A stretch of 64,000 nucleotides of DNA from Perna viridis (GCA_037379345.1 CM074511.1:42538862-42602861); one strand, 5' to 3'; counted from the stretch's first letter, positions 41,401 through 47,400 are shown. Translations and numbers: made by a program. Notes: generated by a model from the sequence alone, not told the origin.

Positions 41401-44400
41401 TCTTAGTTGTTCTAGCATCAAAAATTTTAAAAGATTTCACAACCCTCTGAAATCCTTGTTATTCCTAAATAGAGCAGTGAACATCCTCAAGTTGGCTACA
41501 CATTAAAAATCCTTAAATCACTGATATATTGAATTATTCTCTATAAATATGAACTAAAAACAAAACTAGTTAATTAAGTGACCCCCCAAAAAAAGAATAC
41601 AGCCATTTAGGCACAATTATGTGTGGTAGATTTTATTATTTAATATGAAATTATAAGTTACCTTTTCCAATTTTTTTCTCCTTTATCTTACTGTTTTTTT
41701 TACTATTATGCCGTATAATTAGCAATTAGCTGTAATAACAAATTATTGACTAACAATCCAATATTTGCCTAAATATGATCAAAACTGCCAATACAATACA
41801 AAATACAAAAGTGTGCCAATACAAGATTTAGCCTTCCAATACAGCTATTACCCGTCCAATTTAGCCGTCCAAAACGGCTTTTACCCGTCCAATACGTCAT
41901 GTTGGCCTGGTTAAGATCAATATTAGCCTAGTTAGTCAATAAAGGTATAATTGCGTAAGGTTTTCCATATTGGCTGAGTTATTGGTCCTCAGCTAGTCAT
42001 AATGGACTTTGGCTACGCCTCGGTGCAATATGGCTTGCCTCGGACCAATAACTAAGCCAATATAGAAAATCTTACGCAATAGTTCTATATTATTATTCGT
42101 ATAAGAATTTACATATGAACCTTATAGAAAAAAAAATATTTTAATACACGTGCACCTTGTCTATATTAAAGCCTTCAAAGAAATCTGTCCTTTCATTTTC
42201 ATTTCTACAATATTAATTTGAAAGATAAGAAATTTTTAGTGTTCCCTACAGGATAATTTGAAAGGGCATGGCTAACTTGCTAGAGTGCCCTTTTCAAAAG
42301 CTGCAGGATTGACTTGTCTACTAACCACCAGAGGAATTGCCTATTGCTGCACCATCAGAGGAAGCTACTTTAGTGACAGCTGATGGATTATATGTCCAGG
42401 AAGTACCACACACTTCTACCTTCAGGTCATTATCATGATAGATCTGCTGGACACGTCCTATCTTTCCAAGTGTCTGAATTCAAATACACATTATAAGGTA
42501 TGAAATGAAAAAAATCCTCATTAACTTAGAATAGAATATAACTACCTAAAATTAAACCCAAAATATTGTATCACATTTATAACATGTTCATAACAATGTC
42601 ATTTCGACAATGCATTGACTTGTTTTGATGTTACATGAGTTAAAGGTTTGAATTTGAATTATCCCCCTTTATAAGCATCGAACAATAATTATTTTGCAAT
42701 TTATGTGTGTCTTGTAACAAATACACAGGAATACTTACTGGTATCATGGCTTCAGCCCACTCCCCATGACCTCTCTGAAGCAACTTTATTTTCTCAGCAT
42801 CACTACAAATCTGGACTAGATCTCCAACAGCGAAGGGTGTTGGTGGTGGGGTAATGTTAGCATTATCTGTGTTGGACGATGAAGCACTACTAGGACTGTT
42901 CACTTTAGTCAGCACAGCTGGATTAAAAGTCCATCTAAAAGAAGCAGTGTTGAATACTTTCATTAATATTATTGTCTGTATGAAGACTTTGTTAGATAAT
43001 TCAAAACATACACAAATTTAAAGGTTACTACTGATTTTCAGGCTTTAAAATCCAATTAAAATGAATTTTATTGATTAAATAAGCTAATGCAAAATGCACA
43101 TATACAGCAACTTGTATAATCTTTAAACTTTAAAGTTTTACTAAGACTACCAGTACTTTGATTATTGGGCTTGTGACAATCTCTTCATTGTTCAAATATT
43201 CCATACTATTCTATCATAATATAGTTGGACATTTCTTATGATTTTATCTTTTTATCATCAACAAACTTATATCAAGAGCCATTCATTTTTAATAATTTCA
43301 CAAAATATTTTGTAAATCAAAATGTAAATAATGCTATAAATGAAAATTAATTGATATGAGACCTGTAAAATATACTAAATAATGGAATTATTACATAAAA
43401 AAACTCCCATATGAAACCATGTCAATGAAGGAGAATCTCCTACATGAACTGTTCCAAAAGTTAACAGGTATAATTATTCATATGCTTGGTATTTTGTGTA
43501 TTAGTCACTTACACATTTGCATACGCAATAAAACATAAATCCTTAAATGAGCAGACAATGAGAAAGATTTAGTCCCATTCAGAAATTGGAGACAGATTTG
43601 TGATTCCAGGACAATTACTAACCTGTTACCACTGGGATAAGACACAACAATATCATGATCCTCGTCTATTCCAACCACTGTCCCTGTCGTGCCCAGGCAC
43701 TGTAACATTAGATATGAATTGTAGAATGAGGTTCTTTTTATGTTTACTTTATATTGGCATTAGCTATGCAAATACACAAATACATTATAAAACATTATTT
43801 TCATTGAAAAAATAAACCAATTGATTCTGATTTTACCTGGTCAACAAAAAAAGATAACTTGGCAAAATTGACCTTAAAATATACAGTAAAAAAGAATTAT
43901 AACTCCAAATTCCTGATTTGAAAAGGCAGAATTTTGCTTTAAAACAGAGGAAAATCAGGTCTGCTTAGATTTAAGTATACATTGCTGTTGTTTAATTACC
44001 ATTAAGTAATAAAAATGTATTTTGAAAACAGTGGTAAAACAAACAAAAAAAACAAGCACCTACTATCTCCTACTCTTAACCTACCTCAAACATGCCATCA
44101 GTCCATCCACCATGGCCATGCTGTAGAGACTGTACCATCTCCTACTCTTAACCTACCTCAAACATGCCATCAGTCCATCCACCATGGCAATGCTGTAGAG
44201 ACTGTACCATCTCCTACTCTTAACCTACCTCAAACATGCATCAGTCCATCCACCATGGCTATGCTGTAGAGATTGTACTATCTCCTACTCTTAACCTACC
44301 TCAAACATGCCATCAGTCCATCCACCATGGCAATGCTGTAGAGACTGTACCATCTCCTACTCTTAACCTACCTCAAACAAGCCATCAGTCCATCCACCAT

Positions 44401-47400
44401 GGCTATGCTGTAGAGATTGTACTATCTCCTACTCTTAACCTACCTCAAACATGCCATCAGTCCATCCACCATGGCAATGCTGTAGAGACTGTACCATCTC
44501 CTACTCTTAACCTACCTCAAACATGCATCAGTCCATCCACCATGGCTATGCTGTAGAGATTGTACTATCTCCTACTCTTAACCTACCTCAAACATGCCAT
44601 CAGTCCATCCACCATGGCCATGCTGTAGAGTGTACTATCTCCTACTCTTAACCTACCTCAAACATGCCATCAGTCCATCCACTATGGCCATGCTGTAGAG
44701 AGTGTACTATCTCCTACTCTTAACCTACCTCAAACATGCCATCAGTCCATCCACCATGGCCATGCTGTAGAGAGTGTACTATCTCCTACTCTTAACCTAC
44801 CTCAAACATGCCATCAGTCCATCCGCCATGGCCATGCTGTAGAGACTGTACTATCTCTAACTCTAGATCTACATTGACTTGATCACCAATAGCCAGACCA
44901 CCGGGACCTGATCTAGATCCTGGGCCCTGTTCACCTGAAAGGGGAGAATTCTCAATGATTCAATAAACAGATTCTCTTTTATCATGCATCTACACATTTA
45001 TGTTAATTGACTTACTGTAATATTTCAACAGTAAGTTAAAATGCAGCTGATTTAAAAAGAATAAGGGCAGTAAAGACAAAAAATATAAAAGCCAGATGTT
45101 ATGCTCTATCAGGATGTTAGGAAATGACATAATTTTTTTTTTATTGACAACATGTAAGAATTAATTAAGTGGATTTTGCCAATATTTTACAACAGTATCC
45201 TTGGTAGTATCGAGTAGTCATCAATACTAGGAGTTACAACTACTTTAATACTCATGTATAAGATCGATTTGTCAATAGTATTACAGAGGCTTGATAGTAT
45301 TTAATAGTCATCAATATTAGGAGTTACAACAACTTTAATGTAAGATAGTACTTGTTTTATTTGCATGAAGCAGTAGTATTACAGAGGCTTTCAAGTGATG
45401 TTTAAAGGTATGGTCATAACTATACAAGGGACTGTACGTGCACAAGTTAAGAATAAAAAATGTTTTATTTCAATAATAAACCCAGATGTAATAAAAACTT
45501 GAAAACTCAAATTAATGTTGACATCATGTAACAACACTGTAAAATTTACTTATAGACTTGGTGAATTAGATCTTTTATCTGTCTGACCAAATGGAAAACT
45601 TTGACCTTTATCCAAGTAAGTTCAACAAGAAAATGTGAAAAATTCTGCCAGAACGAAAAATTTTTCTTCAGCATAACCTTCAGTCATACACAATTCACCA
45701 TGACTGGTAGTGATTAGTTCTGCAATTAGTAATCTTACCCAATAAAGGAAGGTGGTCTCTATAGAAAGAACCTCCTTTGGCATCATTTACAACCTTCAAG
45801 TCAGCCTAGAATTTAATTGAGTGGTAATCATTAACAACATTTGTTATATAGATAGCAGTATTTTAATCAATGTTCCAAGTGTAATAAATTTCTATAATAC
45901 CGTAAATTCACTCTCGGTTTTTCTTCTGCCAAAATGTCACAAACGAATATCAATCTGCCATTCACAAAACTTCAAATTCAAGTGTTGAAAAAAGCAATAA
46001 AAAATAGAGGAAATCTGCATAATAAATAGGATAATCGATTGGTTATCGTGAACCAAAATATGATCACTCCTGCCAAGAATGCATAAATATTTAACTTGTA
46101 AGTGGAACAAGATCCACACCCTCTTTAAATCTAGGCATTCTTAGGCACTCATGATCATATTTTGGTTGTTCACTCTTTCCAATTAATTATCCTATTAATA
46201 TCTACTGTTTTGTTATACTTAGAATACACAAGAAGAACTATCACCCACATGGATTTCTGTAGAATGAATTATTGTTTGACAACTTGTAGTTTGTGATATA
46301 AGTACTGATACAAAAATCTAAATCTAAAATGGTTACTGCAGCTGCACAATACCTTATAAATAACATTGAATAATGTATCAGTGTAAACTCACCATTCCTT
46401 CAAAACCAACTCTGTATAAATTTTTGGCAGCATTATCCCATAAAACATAAGCAGCACTTCTTGGGCTTGCTGCACTCCAATCCTAAACAAATAATAAAAC
46501 ATTACTGGAACAATTTCAAGACATCTTAAATCAATGTGATTCAAATTAGAATCACTAATGAGTTCATTAATTTTTATTTAGCAGAGGAAATTAGATATGT
46601 AAACAAGATGCATAGAAAAGTCAATTTATCTAATCACAATGGAAGTCTAATTCTTACCGATTGTGATAACGAACTTTTAAGTAGCAGTCTTTCTAAAAAT
46701 CAGAAATGCATGTCAAAAACCCACAGAATACAGTTTTATTTCTTGTTCAGAAACAGTTACACATAACCAGTCTCATTTTTTCATTGGTTGTTGCGCTTTT
46801 GAGATAAAAATTATATAGATTGTATATGAAATTGACACTCTGCAAGAGTTATTGTTCTTGATTTGGTTTCATTTGGTTGATTTTAGTCAAAGATGAATGT
46901 ATGATTTTTTAAAAAATGCAGGTCTGAATGCAGAAATGGTTATCGTTATGAGAAAGTATAGTATATATAGACTTAAAAAATATCGTTTGTTTATTGGGTT
47001 TTCTTAACCAAGAATCACTTAACCATTGGCAATGTTTGAATTTCATGTGGATTGGTACTTAATCTTTAAATTGGAAAGAAACAGTAACCTCCTAGAGAAA
47101 TATTTGACTCATGCTTACAAAAGCTCATTTTCAGATTTCTCACCTGTATTTCAGTAACTTTGCCCCTCCTACCATTGCCTCCATCCTGATCTTCCCACTG
47201 CCAGTCAACCCCTCTTACAACACGAGCTCCAGGAAATATACCCCTAGCTGTTATCTTTTTGCTTTTCCTTCTAGGCTCAATGGCACACCTGCAATGAAAC
47301 ACAAGTTAATTTTACTTTGAAAATTATCATTATACAGTGGATTCCACTTAATCACATACCTTTTAATTTCATAGAAAATCAAAGAACAAAAACATTTCCC

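What the first reader, a model, noticed from the sequence alone, without database searches (positions are those of the whole stretch)
44061..44857. 72-bp donor array with a visible microhomology seed and an exon / 15-nt GT-AG spacer structure
Seen: in gene sense each unit is GAG ATA GTA ... ATG TTT GAG (57 nt, [19 protein letters not shown]) followed by GTAGGTTAAGAGTAG (15 nt, starts GT, ends AG, contains in-frame TAA and TAG). The unique intron after the last copy continues GAGATAGTA, which is identical to 9 nt inside the exon and gives a microhomology that explains the unit boundaries. Two unit variants alternate (GGCAATG..GACTGTACC and GGCTATG..GATTGTACT), and a 1-bp deletion recurs at the 44229 and 44516 copies, indicating block duplications. 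The exon has GGC GGA where nearly all copies have GGT GGA, a synonymous difference. Inference: this is a young, probably still unstable array. The 15-nt spacer is too short to be a normal intron, but pairing a donor with a more distant unit's AG could add in-frame 19-aa segments to the MIB repeat, which is part of the substrate-binding region.
Basis: partly seen in the sequence, partly recalled or inferred. Interest (0 to 1): 0.72.

Follow-up and report, generated by a model that had tools for sequence, protein, structure and literature searches.

The report
Splice-donor minisatellite in mussel MIB1 intron
The end of one exon of a mussel Notch-pathway gene (MIB1), splice signal included, is copied ten more times into the next intron; the copies are decaying, the RNA reads examined join the real exon straight to the next one, and so this is most likely a silent repeat of a kind already known from lancelets and humans, one that also turns up at many other exon ends in this genome.

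Summary
The array is real: the last 57 nt of MIB1 coding exon 6 plus the first 15 nt of intron 6, present as the exon plus 10 intronic copies (44070-44857). The proposed +57-nt ladder is not supported. None of the 10 copies encodes the conserved 19-aa peptide (6 missense changes at residues invariant in 146 homologues, 2 frameshifts). The spacer AG has no pyrimidine tract. In three RNA runs, 31 reads join to exon 7 and 48 of 48 carry the exon's letter, though those animals are not shown to carry the array. The end match is wider than reported (19 of 24 nt, 9 exact) and is the likely seed. It is a new member of a known kind: amphioxus 'mirage' minisatellites and human F7/CBS/lamin B2 donor VNTRs; this scan noted the kind before on other DNA (19 notes, at least 9 genomes). 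A second such array lies at exon 13 of the same gene. Arrays repeating a donor motif occur at 29 loci on four contigs against 5, 6 and 6 for control motifs, and 13 of 31 checked begin in a recognisable coding exon. That excess is the only part worth following up.

The parts
2288..51337 (-). MIB1 (mind bomb 1) gene of a mytilid mussel, 22 coding exons, no break seen
   Evidence: tblastn with P0004, whose cluster holds Mytilus MIB1; 20 of 21 junctions resolved
44801..44934 (-). Coding exon 6, start of the first MIB (SH3_15) repeat; its last 57 nt are the exonic part of the unit; the authentic donor follows 44801
   Evidence: PDB 4TSE/4XI6 match, Pfam PF18346, boundaries
44786..44800 (-). First 15 nt of intron 6 (spacer): GT donor, in-frame TAA and TAG, ends in AG; identical in all 11 units
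44070..44785 (-). Ten intronic copies (72,72,70,71,72,72,72,71,72,72 bp), each with a decoy donor; 716 of the 1101 nt of intron 6
44849..44872 (-). Exon side of the likely seed (24 nt; 9 exact at 44849-44857)
   Evidence: 19 of 24 identity with 44061-44084
44061..44084 (-). Intron side of the likely seed (last spacer plus 9-nt exact match), followed by unique intron
44572..44641 (-). Copy 3, the 70-bp variant; single here, but a contig from another sample and study (X11) is a perfect cycle of this variant
44137..44618 (-). Block duplication: an exact 195-nt run repeated at period 287 (copies 4-5 equal copies 8-9)
43623..43699 (-). Coding exon 7, joined in RNA to exon-6 sequence
   Evidence: 7 + 14 + 10 junction reads
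32086..32623 (-). Second, older donor-spanning array of the same gene: 39-bp unit (31 nt of the end of exon 13 plus 8 nt of intron 13), about 14 copies, 74% matches

Best explanation
The array is a young minisatellite made of the end of MIB1 exon 6 and the start of intron 6, likely born by slippage or unequal exchange between two 24-nt look-alike stretches 72 bp apart, and most likely silent because splicing takes the first donor and removes all copies with the intron. Shown: unit anatomy, decay of the copies, block duplication, exon 6 joined to exon 7 in the RNA examined. Inferred: the seed; one founder copy that took a C-to-T change at a CpG (shared by all 10 copies) and was then amplified by single-unit and multi-unit duplications; first-donor choice in animals that carry the array; destruction of any leak through a later donor, because the retained spacer puts a stop two codons after the exon.
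For: Anatomy. Neutral decay: 6 of 8 substitutions are missense (0.80 expected without selection, p = 0.67), 2 frameshifting deletions, and all five residues hit are invariant in 146 of 146 homologues. Poor acceptor at the spacer AG; the AGs upstream of it give 68- and 62-nt out-of-frame or GAG-type acceptors. RNA: 31 junction reads to exon 7, 48 of 48 reads with the exon letter at 44109, no go-back joint listed for the array in X21-X23 (upper 95% bound 7%). Later donors read G-M-F-E-V-G-stop. The intron position is old: 8 of 37 related loci have an intron at the same place, none with an array, and their offset-72 match is 6-11 of 24 against 19 here. Precedent: first-donor use in F7, lamin B2 and PDGF (PMC1557585); amphioxus mirages do not disturb splicing (PMC3087553 section 16; PMC3902484 passage). 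The unit is found at this locus only.
Against: The three RNA runs are one study, 19-25% of each was read, depth is 10-20, joints under 3 reads a run are not listed, and the animals are not shown to carry the array (no read covers a spacer). They were laid on a one-unit stretch, so the exon-6 origin of the junction reads rests on one diagnostic base. In human CBS and 6-16 the nearest decoy donors are used (PMC1557585 introduction). No array-free allele or close relative's intron was obtained, so the seed is unproven; among 11 young arrays elsewhere in the genome the excess over whole units ran from 3 to 45 nt with no clear mode (crude). X11 shows the 70-bp cycle at depth 109.5 against 3.1 on one intron contig, and whether that run is RNA or DNA is unknown.
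Confidence: 0.85

Rival explanations
1. Leaky decoy donors: the second or third donor is used part of the time, the retained spacer brings a premature stop, and array length tunes MIB1 dose through nonsense-mediated decay.
For: All 11 donors are identical; CBS and 6-16 use their nearest decoys (PMC1557585); X11 holds the array at high word depth and may be RNA.
Against: 0 of 48 reads with array letters and no spacer reads in X21-X23, though decay would hide such RNA and carrier status is unknown; in F7 identical decoys stay silent.
Confidence: 0.1
2. Functional ladder: a donor pairs with the AG of a later unit and adds in-frame 19-aa segments to the MIB repeat.
For: 7 of 10 copies keep a 57-nt open segment flanked by AG and GT; skipping one unit gives an 87-nt intron, a workable size; a CTGAT branch-like word lies 28 nt before the AG (read from the sequence).
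Against: 0 of 10 copies keep the invariant peptide; substitutions look neutral; no pyrimidine tract and 4 earlier AGs; no ladder reads; none of the 120 proteins checked repeats just this 19-aa segment (the three with doubled motifs repeat much longer stretches).
Confidence: 0.02
3. Alternative origin: the 24-nt end match is not a chance seed but the remnant of an older duplication of exon sequence into the intron start, or of a truncated twelfth copy.
For: The spacer matches the exon at 10 of 15 in register, and 19 of 24 is rare by chance in this window (1.8e-5 per pair); orthologous introns show only 6-11 of 24.
Against: At that rate a 723-Mb genome offers very many chance seeds and duplications would pick them out; five changes in 15 nt beside one shared change in 57 nt need two epochs. 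This rival concerns origin only and is compatible with a silent array.
Confidence: 0.3
4. Assembly artefact: the copies do not exist in animals.
For: Tandem repeats are often mis-assembled (general knowledge).
Against: The copies carry ordered, shared variants; a run from another sample and study holds the unit-to-unit junction as a contig.
Confidence: 0.02

Closest known systems
Amphioxus 'mirage' minisatellites (Adh3, globins BflGb6 and BflGb9, troponin C, PGBD5). Seen: PMC3087553 section 16 and passages; one passage of PMC3902484. The original Adh3 paper (PMC117041) is not held and is known only through these.
   Same: Tandem copies of an exon/intron boundary lying in the intron; units of 10-160 bp (Adh3 up to 72 bp); many units with AG/GT signals; both donor and acceptor sides; several arrays in one gene; normal splicing reported.
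   Different: Here in a mussel; a visible 24-nt end match suggests the seed, whereas that paper calls the mechanism unclear; haplotype and somatic length variation, shown there, were not measured here.
Human F7 intron 7 37-bp VNTR, with lamin B2 (100 bp) and PDGF (81 bp) as cited there. Seen: PMC1557585 abstract, passages of introduction and results, whole discussion.
   Same: First unit spans the exon/intron junction; identical decoy donors follow; only the most upstream donor is used.
   Different: The F7 unit is 4 nt exon plus 33 nt intron; here 57 nt exon plus 15 nt intron ending in AG. F7 decoys were shown to work when the first donor is mutated; untested here.
Human CBS intron 13 VNTR and interferon-inducible 6-16 minisatellite (seen only as cited in PMC1557585)
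   Same: Donor reiterated 15-25 times in the intron.
   Different: There the nearest decoys are used in RNA; none was seen here in 48 reads from animals of unknown genotype.
Intron gain by tandem duplication of an AG|GT site (PMC3265369 and PMC2891723, search listing only; model in PMC3087553 section 16)
   Same: A duplicated segment holds AG and GT that could in principle pair.
   Different: No new intron: the position is old (8 of 37 related loci) and the protein is co-linear with Mytilus MIB1.

Membership tests
Mirage / donor-reiterating minisatellite | Tandem unit made of an exon end plus the adjoining intron start | tested here: met
   57 nt exon + 15 nt intron
Mirage / donor-reiterating minisatellite | The exon-proximal unit is the authentic boundary; the rest lie in the intron | tested here: met
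   Only unit 0 continues the upstream frame and encodes the conserved peptide; RNA carries its diagnostic base
Mirage / donor-reiterating minisatellite | Minisatellite turnover: unit variants, block duplication | tested here: met
   Three unit types, exact 195-nt run at period 287
Mirage / donor-reiterating minisatellite | Normal splicing in animals that carry the array | tested here: inconclusive
   Canonical junction only in X21-X23, carrier status unknown
Mirage / donor-reiterating minisatellite | Length polymorphism between individuals | tested here: inconclusive
Mirage / donor-reiterating minisatellite | Somatic length instability (amphioxus Adh3) | not testable with these tools
   Needs single-molecule typing of tissues
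Functional tandem cassette exons | Acceptor with a pyrimidine tract | tested here: not met
   0.32 against 0.47-0.84 in 20 acceptors of the gene
Functional tandem cassette exons | Coding constraint on the copies | tested here: not met
   6 of 8 substitutions missense, 2 frameshifts, 0 of 10 wild-type
Functional tandem cassette exons | Inclusion in mRNA | tested here: inconclusive
   0 of 48 reads, animals of unknown genotype
Intron gain by tandem duplication | New intron position | tested here: not met
   Same position in 8 of 37 related loci

The most novel reading that the evidence does not exclude
Exon borders are birth sites for minisatellites in this mussel genome: hundreds of splice donors (and some acceptors) have been amplified into mirage arrays far more often than matched sequence, through a process tied to the exon border itself, and the two arrays in MIB1 are a young and an old product of it.
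Probability: 0.4. Interest if true: 0.55.

Novelty: new member of a known kind. Interest (0 to 1): 0.25.

Why it matters
The array itself matters little: it is one more silent splice-donor minisatellite. It is a tidy natural test of first-donor choice with 11 identical donors in a conserved gene, and its visible end match gives a concrete origin for a repeat class whose mechanism the amphioxus paper calls unclear. The wider count matters more if it holds: a roughly five-fold excess of arrays on splice donors would make mirages a genome-wide, countable feature in a mollusc and would let one ask whether exon borders are mutational hot spots. Such arrays can also mislead gene prediction.

Tried and rejected
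Word shares of the run search cannot tell carriers from non-carriers: an array-free allele could still hold 0.86-0.93 of the words. Metagenome loci (37) held no close relative (best 62 of 72 nt in the exon), so the ancestral intron start was not recovered. P0001-P0003 scored high because they repeat long MIB stretches, not this segment. Invariance of the spacer across copies is not significant (p about 0.10), so it is no sign of selection. A scan for end matches in 31 other arrays was too crude to use (it also mis-measured the focal array). A donor-over-acceptor bias was considered and not shown: acceptor-motif arrays are also in excess on C1 (16 against 6, p = 0.05) and 2 of 20 end in a recognisable exon (2 of 3 PDB checks blank). 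Literature: 8 searches; none returned a paper on this locus or on mirages in bivalves (0 papers with all five terms; 1 unrelated), but the library lacks most subscription journals and no supplements were read.

Full report
Setting. The window holds a whole MIB1 gene on the minus strand, 22 coding exons from 51337 to 2288, at 82-100% identity per exon to P0004, whose cluster consists of Mytilus MIB1 proteins; the animal is a mytilid mussel. Exon 6 (44934-44801) matches the first MIB repeat of human MIB1 (PDB 4TSE, 4XI6) and Pfam SH3_15. That this repeat helps bind Notch ligands is recalled, not checked. Intron 6 is 1101 nt, 716 of them array.

Observation. The array is as described in outline: the exon's last 57 nt plus the first 15 nt of the intron, as the exon and 10 further copies, then a 9-nt exact match to the unit start. 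Copies 4 and 8 share a 1-bp deletion, copies 5, 7 and 9 are identical, and an exact 195-nt run repeats at period 287. Copies differ from the exon by 4.3% on average. The unit's donor motif occurs only here in the 723-Mb genome (10 exact matches, all in the array).

Origin. The match between the two ends is wider than 9 nt: exon 44849-44872 and intron 44061-44084 agree at 19 of 24, a level reached in 170 of 9.4 million comparable pairs in this window. In the 8 of 37 related loci that have an intron here the same comparison gives 6-11 of 24, and none of the 37 has an array at this boundary. A duplication seeded by this look-alike explains 11 units plus a fraction. All 10 copies share one C-to-T change at a CpG, which points to a single founder copy (inference). 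An older duplication or a truncated last copy would leave the same trace; without an array-free allele this stays open.

Coding potential. Ten distinct changes are found among the copies: 6 missense, 2 synonymous, 2 frameshifting deletions. The missense share fits no selection (0.80 expected; p = 0.67). The five residues hit are invariant in 146 of 146 homologues examined. The AG that ends the spacer has pyrimidine share 0.32 with 8 G and 4 AG in the 19 nt before it; 20 well-resolved acceptors of the gene have 0.47-0.84 and 0-1 AG (junction 10 was unresolved and left out). Use of any later donor keeps a spacer and stops two codons after the exon.

RNA. Three raw RNA runs of the same species label (one study, 19-25% of each read) were laid on 42300-44141, which holds the last unit and exons 7-9. 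The joint to exon 7 is read 7, 14 and 10 times. At 44109, 10 of 10, 20 of 20 and 18 of 18 reads carry the exon's base, not the array's; no joint that goes back within the unit is listed. The upper 95% bound for array-derived sequence there is 7%. Limits: low depth, joints under 3 reads unlisted, and no proof that these animals carry the array. A fourth run (X11, another sample and study, RNA or DNA unknown) holds a 100-nt contig that is a perfect cycle of the 70-bp variant at word depth 109.5 against 3.1 for one intron contig; its words occur 4.0 times on average in this assembly. This shows the array outside the assembly and hints at a longer allele with another dominant unit, but contig depth is no copy number.

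Known kind. PMC1557585 (abstract, passages, discussion) describes minisatellites whose first unit spans an exon/intron junction: F7, lamin B2 and PDGF use only the first donor, CBS and 6-16 also the nearest decoys. PMC3087553 (section 16) and PMC3902484 (one passage) describe amphioxus mirages at both boundaries, with units of 10-160 bp and normal splicing. The array meets the structural tests of this kind; splicing in carriers and length variation are inconclusive. After reaching this reading I found that the scan's own notes hold 19 similar findings in at least 9 genomes, one in a mussel; none lies near this window. They are unchecked and add no support.

Wider pattern. The same gene has a second, older array at the donor of exon 13 (39 bp, about 14 copies, 32086-32623). 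Genome-wide, three copies of AGGTAAGT at period 28-53 give 230 matches against 118, 64, 64, 60 and 98 for five same-composition controls. By distinct loci on contigs C1-C4 (36% of the genome, fully listed) the count is 29 against 5, 6 and 6 for the three controls that were listed, although the single donor 8-mer is rarer than its reversed control (23,394 against 42,348). Of the 31 loci among the first 100 matches, frames running into the array from the 5' side hit Pfam at E <= 0.01 in 10 (three weakly; one is this gene's exon 13) and frames on the 3' side in 0 (40 and 26 frames); three more, picked by eye, match SRPK, MRP1/ABCC and Spindle-E in the PDB. Acceptor-motif arrays are also in excess on C1 (16 against 6), two of 20 ending in a GON-domain and a KAT2A exon. 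A rough extrapolation gives about 65 arrays for this one motif and period range and, as 2 of 21 MIB1 donors fit the motif, several hundred in all (inference). The controls are few and not matched for genic position, so a hot spot at exon borders is a lead, not a result.

Verdict. A real, young, most likely silent splice-donor minisatellite; new member of a known kind. The ladder idea is unlikely (0.02). Interest 0.25, carried mainly by the genome-wide excess.

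Noticed in passing
window 32086-32623 (-): Second donor-spanning minisatellite in the same MIB1 gene: 39-bp unit from the end of exon 13, about 14 copies that diverge with distance from the exon; the unit length is a multiple of three but the donor's intron part reads into a stop.
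   Followed up: partly
L054, L055, L059, L067, L084, L085, L091, L097, L100, L103 (G000 C1-C4): Donor-spanning arrays at the ends of coding exons with ILEI, SRPK, thioredoxin-like, mago nashi, Spindle-E, CCCH zinc finger, ZIP transporter, ABCC/MRP1, dynein AAA and papain-family matches.
   Followed up: partly
L111 and L113 (G000 C1): Acceptor-spanning arrays ending in a KAT2A/GCN5 exon and a GON-domain exon.
   Followed up: partly
run X11 laid on window 44061-44128: A contig that is a pure cycle of the 70-bp variant at about 35 times the depth of an intron contig, with no exon contig shown; a longer allele or a retained array in RNA could both explain it.
   Followed up: partly
window 43826-43966 and 43420-43470: Two interspersed repeats in introns 6 and 7: the first has at least 39 matches elsewhere in the genome at 73-85%; the second draws many partial RNA reads from other transcripts.
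   Followed up: no
window 57806-58823, 59934-60202, 24213-24457, 8602-9070: Further minisatellites (48, 32, 42/37 and 21/42 bp) that do not touch MIB1 coding exons.
   Followed up: no
window 12095-32593: Intron 13 is 20.4 kb, by far the longest of the gene; P0006 (oyster) aligns with about 14 residues less between the exons at 12095 and 10644 and 14-19 more near 40900, and Mytilus isoforms of 1010 and 1024 aa exist, which suggests small alternative exons not mapped here.
   Followed up: no
L017:1633: One related locus appears to use a GC donor at the same intron position.
   Followed up: no
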